From assembly GCF_009914755.1 (NCBI RefSeq), contig NC_060939.1: DNA of 64,000 nucleotides, one strand, 5' to 3'. The DNA comes from the human T2T-CHM13v2.0 reference genome, Homo sapiens. A program made the position numbers and the translations under genes. Below, one piece after another: positions 19,960 to 56,251 of the stretch; the stretch's first letter is position 1, and every line of letters starts with the position of its first letter. Under the pieces are notes generated by a model. The model made no database searches. It was not told where the DNA came from and was given only the letters and a program-made list of their open reading frames with translations.

Positions 19960-21015
19960 ACATGTGTTTGCCACACTGTCCCTTAAACAGCCTTTCTTTC
20001 TTTTTTTTCTTTTTTTTTTTTTTTTTTTGAGATAGAGTCCTGCTCGGTTGCCCAGGCTGGAGTGCAATGGAGCGATCTTGGCTAACTGCAACCTCCAACT
20101 CCCAGGTTCAAGCGATCTCTTGCCTCAGCCTGCCAAGTAGCTGTGATCACAGGCAACTGCCACCATGCCCGACTAATTTTTTTTGTATTTTTAGTAGAGA
20201 CAGGGTTTCGCCATGTTGGCCAGGCTGGTCTCGAACTCCTGACCTCAGGTGATCCACCCACCTTGGCCTCCCAAAGTGCTGGGATTACAGGCACCTGGCC
20301 TGAACAGCCTTTCTAAAGCGTAAATTGATGGTCTTTGCCTTTGTGAAACTCCTCCATGGCTCTCCTGACCCTCAGAATAAAATAACAATGATGGTAATAG
20401 CTACCTTTTACCCAGTACTTTGTATAGGCCAGGCACTATACACAGCATTCTCTATGGGTTAGCTCAGTAGCTCCTCACCACATTGCTTAGAGGTGGGTAA
20501 ATTGTTGTTTCCATTTGATAGCCTTGATTCAGGTGCCAGCTCAGGATGTCAGATCCTGTCCTCCTACCACACTGCCCCAATCTTTTTCTGTGGCTGCAGA
20601 TGCCATATATAACTTAACATCAACTCATCTTTCCAGCATCACTAAACTTCTCTCCACTCCCCACGCTGAACTCCCTGGGCTCTCTTTTATTTCCAGACCT
20701 TTGTCCTTGCTGTTTTCTAGAACTCTTCCTGACCCATGCTGCTGCAATCCCAGCTGCTCTCTCCTCACTGAGCTTCTGTTCGCTTTTCCAGTCTCCTTTT
20801 AGACATCACTTCCTGTGTCAGCCCCTCTCACCCTTCTCCAAATAAGCTGGGGAAGATGGCCCTCCATGTGTCCACCATTACTGTGATACCTGTTTCTGTC
20901 ATCCCCACTGGTCTGCCTCAAGTTCTTGAGGGAGGAAACATGTGTTGCTCACTGCTATATCCTCAGCACTGGTAGCACCTGACACAAAGTAGATGCTCAA
21001 ATATGAGTGATGAAT
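19960..21015 (+). mobile_element. L2 3' region interrupted by an Alu (19998-20300) and a minus-strand MIR (about 20385-20515)
   Basis: aaactcctccatggctctcc...ctcagaataaaat; agacatcacttcctg; agcacctgacacaaagtagatgctcaaat L2 terminus. Confidence 0.7.
19998..20300 (-). mobile_element. AluSx-like with a short deletion across the A box
   Basis: TSD t(a/g)aacagcctttct at 19984-19997 and 20301-20314; attacaggc joined directly to acctggcc. Confidence 0.95.
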
Positions 21016-21101
21016 CCCAAGGGAATACATGTACTGTTAATTTCGTGATGGTGGTGGAGGTGTGGAGGCAGGATATCATTTCTTTGGGAGTGGTCTTTTC
21101 T

Positions 21102-21104
21102 TTC

Positions 21105-21136
<32 letters not shown>

Positions 21137-21418
21137 AGACAGAGTCTCACTCTGTTGCCCAGGCTGGAATGCAGTGGCACGATCTCGGCTCACTCGCAAC
21201 CTGCGCCTCCTGGGTTCAAGCGATTCTCCTGCCTCAGCCTCCCGAGTAGCTGGGATTACAGGTGCCCATCCCTACACCCAGCTAGTTTTTGTATTTTCAG
21301 TAGAGATGGGGTTTCACCATGTTGGCCAGGCTGGTCTCAAACTCCCGACCTCAGGTGATCCGCCTGCCTCGGCCTCCCAAAGTGCTGGGATTACAGGCGT
21401 GAGTCACCGCACCCGGCC
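21102..21418 (-). mobile_element. AluSx-like
   Basis: Full dimer; TSD ggagtggtcttttct at 21087-21101 and 21420-21434. Confidence 0.95.
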
Positions 21419-21699
21419 AGGAGTGGTCTTTTCTAGGATGTAGTCATGTTTGCTCCTCCCAAACAAAAAGCCTGTTCTCTGGGACATCAGGTGACAGACT
21501 AGCTGTAGAGTCATAATTTCTCACTTTCATTAAGTAGCTGTCCTTATCAGTAGGATAGGTGAACAGCAGCAGAAATTTTTCCCTAGGGAATTTCAGAGGC
21601 CATGAGGTTGGAAACTGGAGTCTTAGTTGTCATAACCTAGTTCCCTTGCGTGGTGCTGCAGATCCCCATTGTCTGGGGAAGTCAGCTCGGCTGCTCACA

Positions 21700-21840
21700 C
21701 AGTGGGGCAAACATGGGCTCCAGGGTGCAACTTGGGACTCAGATCTGGGCTCTGCCACTTGTTATCTCACGTCTCTAAGCCTCCATTTCTTTCTCTGAAA
21801 AATGGAGATACTATCTACTTCTCTTATTTTAAGCTGTGGA
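21700..21840 (+). mobile_element. MIR
   Basis: ctcagatctgggctctgccactt...tctctaagcctccatttctttctctgaaaaatggagata. Confidence 0.75.
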
Positions 21841-21923
21841 ACTAATTTATGTTGCATTCCCAGCCCTCAATTAACCGTGGAGTGTACAATCTGATTGAAA
21901 GAACCCGATCGAGGCCATTTTCT
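21841..21923 (+). repeat. Left arm of 83-bp inverted repeat
   Basis: Reverse complement of 23006-23088, 78/83 identical, no gaps. Confidence 0.97.
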
Positions 21924-23005
21924 GGGCGTGCATCCCTGTCTTCCTCTTTGGACAGCCTCTTGGGAAGGAAACATACCATTTAAAAAAGAAAAGTAGGGTT
22001 TGTGAGTGGAGCTGCAGCCATCTTGCCCGACAAATTGACCTCTTTGGTGATTGGGGCTACATTTTTTATCCAAGTCAGGTCCAGAGTCTCTTAATGCCAT
22101 TTTGTCTCTGACCATGTGTGCCACCCAGGAGGATCTGGGGTCGTATCGTTCCAAGCCAGAAGAAGCCTAACGATTGCTTGTTGAAAGAAAATTGTTATGG
22201 GCTCTCTAGGTATTTGCAGCCTGACAAATAACTGTCTTTCTCAAAGAGTTTAGACACACATAACTAAACACTGAATACCCATATGGCCCATCACAGATGA
22301 AAAGGTGGTAAATAAGAAAAGCCCAGTGTAATCAATAATGTTGTCTTCTAAACTACATGAAGAAAAATTCCAGTCAATATCTGGGATAGTCAGTTCTTTT
22401 AAAACCAGGGAATGATGAGAATGAGACGATTCCATATATAGAAAACGATGTGAGGAAATCTTTATTCTAATTCAAAATGTTCACATTTTTGCAATTCATG
22501 AGATTTCTCTGTAGCAAAAGAGGAATATGATTGTATATAAAATTTAGTGGCTCTGAACAAAATTGAGTAAATGCTGGAAAAAATTTTGCCGTGTCATTTC
22601 GCCTACAAAATGATAAAGGAAAATAATAGCTAAAAAGGCAGCAAGAAATAAGCAGGCTCTGGTTGGGAGTAATTTTTTTTTCAAATGCATTTTTTAATTA
22701 AAAAGAAATTGCCTCAGTTAACTGTTTTCAGAAATAAGGCATAAGAATAACCTAAAAACACTGCTTTCTGGAAAGCATAGATATTAATTTTAAATCAACT
22801 TGGTTAAAAGACCTTTAACTTGCTATATAGCTCGGTGACTAAATGTTACTGCACTAAGAAACCACAGACTATTTTTCTCAGGATCTTTTATTTTTTCCCT
22901 TAGAGAGGGAGATTGTCTCTTCCCTGGTGGAGTTCAGTGAATCAGAATATTGGTCAAATATGTATTGAATGCACATGATTTGACCCGTGTGGATCCACTC
23001 TTTAG

Positions 23006-23088
23006 AGAAAATGGCCTTGATCGGGCTCTTTCAATCAGATTGTACACTCTACGGTTGATTGAGGGCTGGGAATGCAACGTAAATTAGT
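23006..23088 (-). repeat. Right arm of 83-bp inverted repeat
   Basis: Reverse complement of 21841-21923, 78/83 identical, no gaps. Confidence 0.97.
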
Positions 23089-23429
23089 ATGCTTTTTTTA
23101 ATGTGTAGAGAGTGGTTTCTGCTGCTTTTGAACAAGCTAAAGAAATGTTTTTCCCATGAATCTCTGGGCATCCTGGGTATATCTGTCTGTTCTAGCCCTG
23201 ACTTCCTCACCGTACATGGGGTGCTTCACTCACTTAGGCCTCCCATCCCCTACCTACATCATCCTCCCTCCCCAGTCTGAACACTCCCGCACTCTGCCCA
23301 GCTGTGCCAGGAAGAATGGCCACTCAGGGACAAGGCAGCAGGACCACTGTTGTTCTTTCCTTCTTTCAAACACGTAGGCACTTGGTGTGGGCACTCTTCT
23401 AGGTGCTGGAGAGAGAGAAAGTAATGTGT

Positions 23430-24509: not shown

Positions 24510-24848
24510 TATCACTATTTACTGATATCTCTCCATTTTCCTCTCTAGCTCCACCCTCCACCCTGTTCTATGGCCCTGGGCGTGACTTGCTCTTGCCCCT
24601 TGCCTTCTGTTTGGATCCTGCCAATGAGGACTCCTAGCAGGAGATGGGGGCTCTCATATTTAACTGAAAGGCTCAGCTCCACGCAGCGTTTCTGTCTCCA
24701 GGTAACAGTAGCCGTACCTTCCTGCACCCCACTATATGTGTAGCTTCATGACCCGTCTGCCCAGTTTTGAGGAGAGTTCCATGAACTATTTACAACTTTT
24801 TCCTAATTTGAGTATGTCATCTGTTTCCTGTGGGACCGTGAGTCATTA
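24510..24848 (+). mobile_element. LTR33-like (ERVL) solo LTR
   Basis: gccaatgaggactcctagcaggagat; terminal tttgagtatgtcatctgtttcctgtgggaccgtga. Confidence 0.65.
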
Positions 24849-25809: not shown

Positions 25810-25960
25810 GATAGAAAGAGCTATGGATAGAAGAGCTAAAATCTGCTTGAAGTCACAGCACTGTTTGGGTCATCTTTGCTGCAGCACAACCTCTCTGAGC
25901 TTCAGTTACCTCACCTAGGTAATGATAATAATATCTTCCTATCTTGTAGACTACTGAGCA
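25810..25960 (+). mobile_element. MIR fragment
   Basis: aacctctctgagcttcagttacctcacct...gataataata. Confidence 0.6.
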
Positions 25961-42891: not shown

Positions 42892-43406
42892 AAGAAAATG
42901 TGGTATATATACACAATGGACTACCATTTAGCCATAAAACGAATCAAAGCTTGTGATTTTTGGCAACGTGAATGAGCCTGGAACACTTTATGTTAAGCAA
43001 AAGATAAATATCATATCGTCTCACTCATATGTGGAAGCTGAAAAAGTTGAGCTCATAGAAGTAGAGAGTAGAATTGTGGTTATTAGAGGCTGGGAAGGGG
43101 ATTGGGGAGGAGAGGACAGGGAGAGATTGATTAATGGACAAAAAAATGACAGCCAGATAGGAATAAGTTCTGGTGTTATGCACTACTGTAGGGTGAATAA
43201 GGCTAACTATGATATATGTTTACAAAAAGCTAGAAGAGAATTTTGAATGTTCACAGCACAAAGAAATGATAAATGTTTCAGGGCATGGTTATGCTAATTA
43301 CCCTGATTTGAACATTAAACATTGTATACATATATCAGAATATCGCTCTGTATCTCATAAATATGTATGATTATTATGTGTCAACTGAAAAGGAAAAAAT
43401 AAATAA
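42892..43406 (+). mobile_element. L1MA5-8-like 3' end
   Basis: aagaaaatgtggtatatatacacaatgg...ctaattaccctgatttga; degenerate TSD aaaa(t/g)tataat. Confidence 0.9.
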
Positions 43407-43482: not shown

Positions 43483-44287
43483 AGAAACTTCTGCTTCCAG
43501 GAAGATGGAGATGTCCTTTTCCCTATTCTCCTGGTAAGTACAGATAAATACCCTGGATGTTTTTCATTTTCAAGTTTTTTAAATTTTTATTTTAAACCGA
43601 TGAATAATTGTACATATTTATGGGTCCAATGTGATGTTTTGATATACATTGTAGAATGAGTATATCTAGCTAATTAATGTGTCCATCACTTCAAATGTGT
43701 ATTTCTTTGTGGTGAGAACATTTAAAATGTATTTTTTTAGAAATCTGAAATATACATGATTATTAACTATGGTCACCATGCTGTGCAATAGATCTTGAAA
43801 ACGTATTTCAAGATCTATTACTAACTGAAACTTAGTACCCTCTGGTCAACATCTCCCCATTCTGCACTACCCATCCCCAAGCCCTGACAACCACCATTCT
43901 ACTCTCTATTTCTTTAAGTTTGACTTTTTAAAGATTCTGCAAATCAGTGAGATAATACAGTATGTGTCTTTCTGTGTCTGGCTTACTTCACTTAGCATTA
44001 AGCCTGCACATTTTTAGAGAAAGCAAACATGAGACTCTGAAGGGTAGAAAAAGAAGGGAGGCTGACTAGAGAGCTCAAGAATGACTCCTTAGGGAATGAT
44101 GAGTTCCCTAGTTTTCTTTTTGACTCATATACAGACTTAGAGCTGAAGACACTTGCAACCTGAAAACATCAACAGCCACACACAAAACAAAAACAAACCC
44201 AAACCCAAAAATGTTCTGCTCTTGGGCCTGGAAAGGGGCATCCCAGCAAGACAGAGAACTTATAGACAATAATCATTATATTCTAGG
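43483..44287 (+). mobile_element. Old L1M 5'-end-like fragment (43483-43560 plus about 44000-44287)
   Basis: acttctgcttccaggaagatgga YY1-type start typical of L1M 5' ends; bounded by duplicated MER5A sequence. Confidence 0.6.
43562..43998 (-). mobile_element. L1MA 3' end
   Basis: ataattgtacatatttatggg...gtctggcttacttcacttagcat. Confidence 0.9.
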
Positions 44288-51449: not shown

Positions 51450-52178
51450 TTTTTTTAAAGTTATACTTTAAGTCCTGGGATACATGTGTAGAATGTGCAG
51501 GTTTGTTAAACAGGTATACACGTGCTATGGTGGTTTGCTGCACCCATCAACCCGTTATCTACATTAGGTGTTTCTCCTAATGCTATCCCTTCCCTAGCTC
51601 TCCACCCACTGACAGGCCCTGGTATGTGATGTTCCCCTCCCTGTGTCCATATGTTCTCATTGTTCAACTCCCACTTATGAGTGAGAACATGCAGTGTTTG
51701 GTTTTCTGTTCCTGTGTTAGTTTGCTGAGAGTGATGGTTTCCAGCTTCATCCATGTCCCTGCAAAGGACATGAACTCATCCTTTTTTATGGCTGCATAGT
51801 ATTCCATGGTGTATATGTGCCACATTTTCTTAATCCAGTCTATCATTGATGGGCATTTGGGTTGGTTCCAAGTCTTTGCTATTGTGAACAGTGCTGCAAT
51901 AAATATACGTGTGCATGTGTCTTTATAGTAGAGTGATTTATAATCCTTTGGGTATATACCCAGTAATGGGTTTGCTAGGCCAAATGGTATTTCTGGTTCT
52001 AGGTCCTTGAGGAATTGCCACACTGTCTTCCACGATGGTTGAACTAATTTACACTCCCACCACCAGTGTAAAAGCATTCCTGTTTCTCCACGTTCTCTCC
52101 AGCATCTGTTGTTTCGTGACTAAATGATCACCATTCTTACTGGTGTGAGATGGTATCTCATTGTGGTTTTGATTTGCA
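51450..52178 (-). mobile_element. L1PA7-like 3' end
   Basis: Minus-strand ORF 51664-52077 resembles the L1 ORF2 C-terminus (WHIYTMEYYAAIKKDEFMSFAGTWMKLE). Confidence 0.95.
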
Positions 52179-55428: not shown

Positions 55429-56251
55429 CGGGCAAAGGACATAAGCAGAAACTTCTCAAAAGGACATTTATGCGGCCAACAAACATGAAAAAAAGCTCAG
55501 CATCACTGATCATTTGAGAAATGCAAATCAAAACCACAATGAGATACCATGTCACACCAGTAAGAATGGTGATTATTAAAAAGTCAAGAAACAACAGATA
55601 CTGACGAGGCTGTGGAGAAATAAGAACACTTTTACACTGTTGGTGGGAATGTAAATTAGGTTGACCATTGTGGAAGACAGTCGGGGCAATTCCTCAAAGA
55701 CCTAGAGGCAGAAATACCATTTGACCCAGCAATCCCATTACTGGGTATATACTCAGAGGAATAAAAATCATTCTATTATAAAGACACATGCAACTGTATG
55801 TTCACTGTAGCACTAGTCACAATAGCAAAGACATGGAATCAACCTAAATGTCCATCAGTGATAGAATGGATAAAGAAACTGTGGTACATATACACCATGG
55901 AATACTATGCAGCCATAAAAAGGAAAGAAGTCATGTCCTTAGTAGGGACATGGAGGGAGCTGGAAGCCATTATCCTCAGCAAACTAACACAGGAACAGAA
56001 AACCAAACACTGCATGTTCTCCCTTATAAGTGGGGGCTGAACAAAGAGACATGGACACTGGGAGGGGAACAACAGACACTCGGGCCTCTTGAGAGGGAGG
56101 GAGGAGCATCAGGAAGAACAGTTAATGCATGCTGGGCTTAATATCTAGGTGATGGGTTGATAGATGCAGCAAACCACCATGGCACACGATTACCTATGTA
56201 ACAAACCTGCACATCTTGCACATGTATCCTAGAACTTACAATTAAAAAAAA
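55429..56251 (+). mobile_element. L1PA (PA10-13-like) 3' end
   Basis: ORF 55798-56040 resembles the ORF2 C-terminus; TSD tttcaaggctg at 55418-55428 and 56252-56262. Confidence 0.93.

What the first reader, a model, noticed from the sequence alone, without database searches (positions are those of the whole stretch)
21841..23088. 83-bp inverted repeat in unique sequence, with differences that preserve RNA pairing on the + strand
Seen: 21841-21923 is the ungapped reverse complement of 23006-23088 (78/83), with a 1082-nt spacer. On a + strand RNA the five differences give G21911-U23018, G21879-U23050, U21872-G23057, U21850-G23079 and one mismatch, A21903-C23026, so 82 of 83 positions pair. A further 7/8 helix (21928-21935 with 22991-22998) extends the stem inward. 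I recognise no repeat family in the arms and see no TSD. Established: A-C mismatches in long dsRNA are preferred ADAR sites, long-range intronic duplexes can alter splicing or back-splicing, and inverted repeats can mediate inversions and arm-to-arm conversion. Inference: this is a long-range RNA duplex or an inversion-prone cassette. The left arm abuts a MIR end and may be the ancestral copy. Caveat: a 4:1 split among five transitions is weak evidence, two of them are CpG decays, and a neutral inverted duplication would look similar.
Basis: partly seen in the sequence, partly recalled or inferred. Interest (0 to 1): 0.8.

Follow-up and report, generated by a model that had tools for sequence, protein, structure and literature searches.

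The report
Single-copy inverted repeat in lncRNA intron
Two 83-base copies of one unique sequence face each other 1.1 kb apart inside an intron of a non-coding gene; they are real and would pair strongly in RNA, but nothing here shows the pairing is more than a by-product of an old one-off DNA rearrangement.

Summary
21841-21923 is the ungapped reverse complement of 23006-23088 (78 of 83), with a 1082-nt spacer. All five differences are transitions, giving 4 G·U and 1 A·C on the + strand.

Arms, spacer and both flanks have no other copy in the genome at BLAST level. There is no Rfam or Pfam signal.

The strand argument is weak. A 4:1 split gives p = 0.375. The − strand duplex is almost as stable, −136.5 against −148.6 kcal/mol. 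Sense-strand G+T enrichment is a known neutral bias of mammalian introns (PMC2927911).

No annotated exon lies between the arms. The longest perfect identity block is 23 bp, so the circRNA and inversion readings lack support.

One new point contradicts "no TSD". An 18-nt direct repeat (14 of 18) flanks the whole unit, and only 13 of 20000 random flank pairs match it.

Best reading: a single-locus, roughly primate-age structural relic. It is most likely a local inverted duplication, or possibly a TSD-flanked insert, that is decaying neutrally and forms an incidental intronic dsRNA. No orthologues or RNA data were available, so origin and editing remain untested. Interest is low to moderate.

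The parts
21841..21923 (.). Left arm of the inverted repeat (83 nt)
   Evidence: unique in the genome apart from its partner; 3 CpG, observed/expected 0.83
23006..23088 (.). Right arm, the reverse complement of the left arm (78 of 83)
   Evidence: 3 CpG, observed/expected 0.81
21924..23005 (.). 1082-nt spacer: unique, AT-rich (GC 0.369), CpG observed/expected 0.30, no ORF over 99 aa, no Pfam or Rfam match
21823..21840 (.). Left copy of an 18-nt direct repeat (CTTATTTTAAGCTGTGGA), directly abutting the left arm; a possible target-site duplication
   Evidence: 10 of 2000 shuffles and 11 of 2000 window pairs reach its score; 120 of 20000 pairs reach the score; 13 of 20000 also have both copies within 3 nt of the boundaries
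23092..23109 (.). Right copy of the 18-nt direct repeat (CTTTTTTTAATGTGTAGA), 14 of 18 identical to the left copy and 3 nt (23089-23091) beyond the right arm
21727..21821 (+). MIR SINE fragment (core region) left of the unit, ending about 20 nt before the left arm
   Evidence: nhmmer E = 0.002-0.003 with an HMM of 30 genomic MIR copies
21928..21935 (+). Inner 7 of 8 helix partner (pairs with 22991-22998); weak and possibly chance
   Evidence: (523 of 20000 random pairs do as well)

Best explanation
This is a single-locus structural relic, not a repeat family and not a selected RNA structure. An 83-bp stretch of unique DNA was copied once, in reverse orientation, about 1.1 kb away. The most likely cause is a replication template switch or fold-back between strands; an inversion with a staggered break at one end would give the same picture. 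Since then the two copies have diverged by ordinary transitions, two of them CpG decays. With recalled neutral rates of 1.0-1.2e-9 per site per year, the 6% divergence puts the event, or the last homogenisation, at about 27-32 Myr. The binomial interval on 5 of 83 gives about 8-68 Myr, that is, within primate history. The unit lies in intron 2 of the + strand lncRNA LOC105370802, 1460 nt upstream of the exon at 24549. Whenever that intron is transcribed the arms should therefore zip into an 83-bp, 82-pair duplex that loops out the 1082-nt spacer. Such a duplex is long enough for dsRNA-binding proteins, so promiscuous A-to-I editing by ADAR is the expected consequence, and it is removed with the intron. 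Shown here: the repeat, its uniqueness, the pair types, and the predicted stability on both strands. Inferred: the mechanism of origin, the age, the neutrality, the transcription and the editing.
For: The repeat is exact in register with sharp ends. Arms, spacer and right flank match only themselves in the 3.1-Gb genome, and the left flank adds only two MIR copies. A sequence model of the arms finds no third copy in the window (best other hit E = 0.48). The terminal 26-mer with up to 3 mismatches has 1 extra hit genome-wide; that hit shares 24 of 27 bases and has no inverted partner. An inner 23-mer has 7 extra hits against 9 for the reversed control. There is no Rfam hit in the arms or the spacer and no Pfam hit reaching a curated cut-off in 16 of 16 ORF translations submitted, out of 17 ORFs listed. 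All 5 differences are transitions and 2 of the 5 lie in CpG. Both strands give very stable duplexes, -148.6 and -136.5 kcal/mol, and the 4:1 split has p = 0.375. Template switching is documented to create new inverted repeats and hairpins in hominid genomes (PMC5453318 passages; PMC7954356 passages: copied fragment median 12 nt, maximum 128 nt). Non-repetitive predicted dsRNAs are a catalogued class of about half a million in human, of which 4,597 are edited (PMC11838218, Results parts 1-2).
Against: The 18-nt direct repeat that flanks the whole unit (14 of 18; 13 of 20000 random pairs match its score and adjacency) is not predicted by a local template switch or an inversion, and it points to insertion of the unit as a whole. 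The documented short-range template switches were searched only within about 100 nt, and this copy is about 1.1 kb away. The arms are CpG-rich (observed/expected 0.81-0.83, against 0.11-0.30 in spacer and flanks and 0.20 in the window; only 4.3% of 83-nt tiles have 3 or more CpG). That is unexpected if an old neutral stretch was simply copied. No outgroup sequence, RNA-seq or editing data could be consulted, so neutrality and age rest on five substitutions.
Confidence: 0.45

Rival explanations
1. The whole 1251-bp unit (21841-23091) was inserted at one time into a staggered break. It would be either a lone non-autonomous element with 83-bp terminal inverted repeats or a captured fold-back DNA fragment, and the 18-nt direct repeat would be its target-site duplication. 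After insertion it behaves as in the best explanation: neutral decay and an incidental intronic dsRNA.
For: Both arms are exactly terminal. An 18-nt direct repeat (14 of 18) abuts the left arm and starts 3 nt after the right arm. A score that high occurs in 10 of 2000 shuffles of the same flanks and 11 of 2000 window pairs, and in 120 of 20000 window pairs, of which only 13 of 20000 also sit that close to the boundaries. The high CpG content of the arms would fit sequence that was young when it arrived. Pooled divergence of arms plus repeat is 9 of 101.
Against: No second copy of the arms or the interior exists in the genome at the sensitivity available. A mobile family or a copy-paste donor should have left one. 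By recall, an 18-bp duplication fits no TIR transposon superfamily (2-11 bp). It fits L1-mediated insertion in length only, since there is no poly(A) or poly(T) at either end and the T-run sits at the wrong end of the repeat. There is no transposase or viral protein signal. The repeat is more diverged (4 of 18) than the arms (5 of 83), Fisher p = 0.051. The MIR fragment on the left does not detectably resume after the right repeat, although that test had little power.
Confidence: 0.28
2. The duplex is a selected long-range RNA structure in the lncRNA precursor, for example an ADAR-recruiting or processing element, kept paired on the + strand by purifying selection.
For: 82 of 83 positions pair on the + strand, with 4 G.U and a single A.C. 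The arms pair in the minimum-free-energy and centroid folds. The arms keep 3 of 4 inferred ancestral CpGs each, while the surroundings are CpG-depleted. The arms are less diverged than the flanking 18-mers.
Against: No compensatory (double) change exists to count. The 4:1 split has p = 0.375. The - strand pairs nearly as well. The sense-strand G/T bias is a known neutral feature of mammalian introns (PMC2927911). There is no Rfam family. A full-text search for four arm substrings found 0 papers, and the 6 papers naming the lncRNA concern other topics by title (listing only). In the dsRNAscan study the section heading states that conserved dsRNAs are less structured and rarely edited (PMC11838218 outline; I read only the opening of that section).
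Confidence: 0.08
3. The repeat is older than it looks. The arms are kept alike at the DNA level by arm-to-arm conversion, template switching between arms or recurrent spacer inversion, so the 6% divergence dates the last homogenisation rather than the origin.
For: The 18-nt flanking repeats are 22% diverged against 6% for the arms (Fisher p = 0.051). GC-biased repair of arm heteroduplexes would retain CpGs, which fits the CpG observed/expected of 0.8 in the arms. Homogenisation of inverted-repeat arms and spacer inversion by template switching is described (PMC5453318 passages; PMC8604942 abstract start, in the listing).
Against: The arms are short, with a longest perfect block of 23 bp. By recall that is far below the tract lengths that support efficient homologous exchange in mammals. 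The arms are also 1.1 kb apart, whereas the documented switching is short-range. The spacer's strand skews are unremarkable (21% and 25% of comparable windows are as extreme).
Confidence: 0.1

Closest known systems
Template-switch mutations that create new inverted repeats and hairpins (four-point model; PMC5453318, PMC7954356, PMC8794818)
   Same: A stretch of nearby sequence reappears as its reverse complement, giving a near-perfect stem from unique DNA with sharp ends and no repeat family involved.
   Different: Reported events are short and local (copied fragment median 12 nt, maximum 128 nt; template sought within about 100 nt). Here the copy is 83 nt and lies about 1.1 kb away. The ancestral state could not be examined, and the flanking 18-nt direct repeat is not predicted.
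MITE-like or fold-back DNA transposon copies (terminal inverted repeats plus a target-site duplication)
   Same: Terminal 83-bp inverted repeats bound a non-coding 1.1-kb interior, and a direct repeat flanks the unit.
   Different: There are no sibling copies in the genome. The duplication is 18 nt, imperfect and offset by 3 nt, and by recall no known superfamily makes one that long. No recognisable transposase remnant was found.
Non-repetitive predicted intramolecular dsRNAs of the human genome (dsRNAscan catalogue, PMC11838218) and inverted Alu pairs as ADAR substrates
   Same: An intronic duplex with a kb-scale loop, well above that study's 25-bp threshold. Introns hold most predicted dsRNAs and editing sites.
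   Different: It is not made of repeats. It is 98.8% paired, and only 31,017 of 5.13 million predictions exceed 96%. At 83 bp it is far below the >300 bp used there for putative MDA5 ligands. I could not look this locus up in that catalogue or in editing databases.
Inverted duplications left at inversion breakpoints by staggered breaks (Drosophila model; recalled, no paper on it read here)
   Same: It would give the layout L-a-(inverted middle)-a'-R, with a unique segment duplicated in inverse orientation at the two ends of the inverted piece.
   Different: This cannot be tested without an outgroup for spacer orientation. Strand-skew tests on the spacer were uninformative. No second duplicated segment was seen at the other breakpoint.

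Membership tests
TIR DNA transposon / MITE | Terminal inverted repeats at both ends of the unit | tested here: met
   83-nt arms, 78 of 83
TIR DNA transposon / MITE | Target-site duplication of a superfamily-typical length directly abutting both termini | tested here: inconclusive
   An 18-nt direct repeat (14 of 18) abuts the left arm but lies 3 nt from the right arm. By recall 18 nt fits no TIR superfamily. No 2-11-nt perfect repeat was seen directly at the ends.
TIR DNA transposon / MITE | Related copies elsewhere in the genome | tested here: not met
   Only the two arms match each other and the interior matches only itself. Pattern searches show no clear excess: 1 extra hit against 0 control and 7 against 9. 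The 20-mer gave 678 against 346, but that control carries a forced CpG, so it is uninformative. Copies below about 80% identity would be missed, and Dfam was not available.
TIR DNA transposon / MITE | Transposase remnant or known terminal motif | tested here: not met
   No Pfam match reached a curated cut-off in 16 of 16 ORF translations submitted. Comparison with known termini was by recall only.
L1-mediated retro-insertion | 7-20-bp target-site duplication plus a 3' poly(A) and a T-rich/A cleavage site at the start of the duplication | tested here: not met
   The length fits (18 nt), but there is no A-run or T-run at either end of the unit and the T-run is at the wrong end of the repeat. The rule itself is recalled and was cross-checked on the neighbouring Alu.
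Template-switch inverted duplication | Reverse-complement copy of nearby unique sequence | tested here: met
Template-switch inverted duplication | Ancestral (outgroup) state lacking one arm | not testable with these tools
   No primate or mammal genomes are held. The genome search states that this genome has no relatives here.
Template-switch inverted duplication | Size and range as in described events | tested here: inconclusive
   83 nt is within the reported maximum of 128 nt, but the 1.1-kb distance is outside the roughly 100-nt range examined in PMC7954356.
ADAR-edited intramolecular dsRNA | Duplex of 25-30 bp or more within one transcript | tested here: met
   Predicted only: 82 of 83 pairs, -148.6 kcal/mol, with the arms paired in the MFE and centroid folds. 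Both arms lie in one intron by the hub's gene table.
ADAR-edited intramolecular dsRNA | Transcription of the region and A-to-G mismatches on both arms | not testable with these tools
   No RNA-seq or editing catalogue is available.
Selected (conserved) RNA structure | Compensatory double changes or significant pair-preserving bias | tested here: not met
   With one sequence there are 0 double changes to observe. The 4:1 G.U:A.C split has p = 0.375, and the - strand duplex is -136.5 kcal/mol.
NAHR inversion substrate | Long tracts of uninterrupted identity between inverted arms | tested here: not met
   The longest perfect block is 23 bp. The threshold of hundreds of bp is recalled.

The most novel reading that the evidence does not exclude
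The unit is an old, once-mobile or captured fold-back insert with an unusually long (about 18-bp) target-site duplication, and it has no surviving relatives in the genome. Its 83-bp arms, which are less diverged than the duplication and have kept their CpGs, would have been held alike by conversion or by selection for pairing. That would make it a lone representative of an undescribed insertion mechanism, or a maintained long-range duplex in a primate lncRNA intron.
Probability: 0.1. Interest if true: 0.6.

Novelty: new member of a known kind. Interest (0 to 1): 0.25.

Why it matters
If it is what it most likely is, it matters little: one more non-repetitive inverted repeat among roughly half a million predicted human dsRNA-forming pairs (PMC11838218). 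It is useful mainly as a clean, non-Alu, almost perfectly paired 83-bp test substrate for intronic ADAR editing, and as a possible example of a longer-range template switch. It would matter more if orthologues showed either of two things. The first is an empty site with a single 18-mer, which would mean an insertion mechanism with a long duplication and no known family. The second is arms conserved or homogenised well beyond neutral expectation, which would mean a maintained long-range duplex in a lncRNA precursor.

Tried and rejected
1. MIR continuity as an insertion test. I built an HMM and consensus from 30 genomic MIR copies and asked whether the MIR tail continues into the left arm or resumes after the right arm.
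   - Local alignment gave 402 of 500 and 177 of 500 shuffles at least as good.
   - Semi-global alignment gave 968 of 1000, 472 of 1000 and 262 of 1000.
   - nhmmer found nothing there. There is no signal either way, so the arms are not detectably MIR and the test cannot show an interrupted MIR.
2. The chr6 26-mer look-alike (L040). It shares 24 of 27 bases, then only weak similarity, and has no inverted partner among 17 listed pairs. I rejected it as a sibling copy.
3. The 20-mer pattern count (678 against 346 control). I rejected it as evidence because the reversed control contains an obligatory CpG.
4. Viral or transposase origin. No Pfam hit reached a cut-off and there is no long ORF (maximum 99 aa).
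5. Spacer inversion from strand skews. This was uninformative.
6. The 7 of 8 inner helix as an extension of the repeat. It arises by chance 2.6% of the time, so it is left open.
7. Literature.
   - Searches for the lncRNA name found 6 papers, and only the listing was seen.
   - Searches for arm substrings found 0 papers.
   - The inversion paper PMC3961182 (passages) held nothing on staggered-break duplications.
8. Steps that could not be run.

Full report
**What is there.** Window 21841-21923 is the ungapped reverse complement of 23006-23088, matching at 78 of 83 positions, with 1082 nt between the arms. Within the window blastn scores the pair at E = 3.8e-26.
- The five differences are all transitions.
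- Two of them (21850 and 23018) are C-to-T changes on the + strand at CpG sites that the other arm retains.
- Identity stops sharply at both ends of the arms.
- In a scan of the whole window for inverted repeats of at least 40 nt within 5 kb, six pairs were listed. Four belong to one long repeat pair at 51.5-52.2 kb and 55.5-56.2 kb, one is a 60-nt pair at 77%, and the sixth is this one.

**Is it a repeat family?**
- BLAST against the window's own 3.1-Gb genome finds only the two arms for the arm query, only itself for the 1082-nt spacer, and only itself for the right flank.
- The left flank finds itself and two MIR copies.
- The outer 26 bases of the arm with up to 3 mismatches give one further hit, on another chromosome, against 0 for the reversed control. 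That hit shares 24 of 27 bases, then fades, and has no inverted partner among the 17 pairs listed for its locus.
- An inner 23-mer gives 7 further hits against 9 control hits.
- A 20-mer gives 678 against 346. I discount this because the reversed control carries an obligatory CpG.
- A sequence model of the two arms finds no third copy in the window (next best E = 0.48). The same model cannot be run on the whole genome.
- Rfam has nothing in the arms or the spacer; its significant hits in this stretch are Alu-derived, at 21134-21419.
- Seventeen stop-to-stop ORFs of at least 40 aa overlap the unit, the longest being 99 aa. I submitted 16 of them to Pfam and none reached a curated cut-off.
- The limit of all this is sensitivity. 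Copies below roughly 80% identity would be missed, and Dfam was not available.

**Surroundings.**
- A profile built from 30 genomic MIR copies places a MIR fragment (+) at about 21727-21821, about 20 nt short of the left arm.
- I tested whether the MIR tail runs into the left arm, or resumes after the right arm as it would if the unit had split a MIR. Neither is detectable. Local alignment gave 402 of 500 and 177 of 500 shuffles at least as good, and semi-global alignment gave 968, 472 and 262 of 1000.
- By the hub's gene table the unit lies in the intron before the exon at 24549 of the + strand lncRNA LOC105370802. Both arms are in the same intron and no annotated exon lies between them.

- The 18 bases that abut the left arm (21823-21840, CTTATTTTAAGCTGTGGA) match 18 bases that start 3 nt after the right arm (23092-23109, CTTTTTTTAATGTGTAGA) at 14 of 18 positions.
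- A score that high between 30-nt flanks occurs in 10 of 2000 shuffles of the same flanks and 11 of 2000 random window pairs, and in 120 of 20000 random pairs in a larger run. Only 13 of 20000 also sit within 3 nt of both boundaries.
- I devised the test after seeing the similarity, so the figures flatter it somewhat. It still looks like a target-site duplication around the whole 1251-bp unit.
- Against that reading, by recall 18 nt fits no TIR transposon superfamily.
- The length fits L1-mediated insertion, but there is no A-run or T-run at either end and the T-run lies at the wrong end of the repeat. The neighbouring Alu, with its 15-nt perfect duplication, shows the expected layout.
- The repeat is also more diverged (4 of 18) than the arms (5 of 83), Fisher p = 0.051.

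**Does the pairing look selected?**
- The 4:1 split of G·U to A·C has a two-sided binomial p of 0.375.
- The arm duplex is −148.6 kcal/mol on the + strand and −136.5 on the − strand.
- In the folds of the 1268-nt stretch the arms pair with each other on either strand, in both the minimum-free-energy and the centroid structures.
- A + strand excess of G and T is what neutral evolution of a + strand intron predicts. [quoted passage not shown] Here G+T is 0.523 over the lncRNA-covered part of the window.
- With a single genome no compensatory change can be counted.
- One oddity remains. Each arm has 3 CpGs (observed/expected 0.81-0.83) and the inferred ancestor had 4. The spacer, flanks and window stand at 0.30, 0.11-0.20 and 0.20, and only 4.3% of 83-nt tiles in the window have 3 or more CpGs.

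**Age.** Divergence is 5 of 83 (Kimura two-parameter distance 0.064; 3 of 75 outside CpG sites). With recalled neutral rates of 1.0-1.2e-9 per site per year this gives about 27-32 Myr. The binomial interval gives about 8-68 Myr. This dates the origin or the last homogenisation.

**DNA-level instability.** The perfect identity blocks are 9, 21, 6, 23, 7 and 12 bp. By recall that is far below what supports efficient homologous exchange in mammals, so 'inversion-prone' is unlikely. Spacer strand skews give no hint of a past inversion (21% and 25% of comparable windows are as extreme).

**Best reading and rivals.**
- I take this to be a one-off, single-locus structural mutation of primate age that is decaying neutrally. 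It gives an incidental intronic dsRNA, which is a probable ADAR substrate.
- For the origin I favour a local inverted duplication by template switching or fold-back (0.45). New inverted repeats from unique DNA are documented in hominids (PMC5453318), although those events are shorter-range (copied fragment median 12 nt, maximum 128 nt, template within about 100 nt; PMC7954356).
- Insertion of the whole unit with an 18-nt duplication is a serious rival (0.28). The flanking repeat argues for it; the lack of any relative or donor copy, and the odd duplication length, argue against it.
- Maintenance of the arms by conversion (0.10) and a selected RNA structure (0.08) are not excluded. The retained CpGs and the better-preserved arms are the only hints in their favour.

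**Comparison with what is known.** As a potential dsRNA the locus belongs to a catalogued class. A genome-wide scan predicted 5.1 million human dsRNAs, over 90% of them repetitive. About half a million were non-repetitive and 4,597 of those are edited. Of the 5.13 million, 31,017 are more than 96% paired. About 30 bp is needed for robust PKR activation and more than 300 bp is favoured by MDA5 (PMC11838218, abstract and Results parts 1-2). At 83 bp and intronic, this duplex is an ADAR-type substrate rather than an immune ligand. I could not look it up in that catalogue, in editing databases or in supplements.

**Verdict.** It is a new member of a known kind, of low to moderate interest. The flanking 18-nt repeat and the CpG-rich arms are the points worth a look in an orthologue alignment.

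Noticed in passing
window 21087-21434: An Alu in minus orientation. A T-run starts at 21119 and there are two SRP-like Rfam hits on the - strand at 21134-21282 and 21301-21417. It is flanked by a perfect 15-nt direct repeat at 21087-21101 and 21420-21434, a textbook L1-type target-site duplication.
   Followed up: partly
window 51469-52178 and 55522-56238: A long inverted repeat in four collinear blocks (365 nt at 87%, 100 nt at 83%, 96 nt at 81% and 56 nt at 96%), with 3.3-4.6 kb between the arms. Both arms overlap stretches the hub lists as masked repeats. The sequence looks L1-like to me by recall only. It would form a far longer dsRNA than the finding if transcribed.
   Followed up: no
window 20396-20498: A well-preserved MIR 3' half on the - strand (nhmmer E = 1.5e-10 with the MIR profile made here). 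A weaker MIR core fragment (+) lies at about 25887-25933 (E = 0.003).
   Followed up: no
window 21841-21923 and 23006-23088: The arms are CpG-rich for this region: 3 CpG each, observed/expected about 0.8, against 0.20 for the window. This is unexplained. Candidate causes are germline hypomethylation, GC-biased conversion between the arms, or sequence that was young when duplicated.
   Followed up: partly
window 43041-43100 and 43870-43929: A 60-nt inverted repeat at 77% complementarity with a 769-nt spacer. Its nature was not examined.
   Followed up: no
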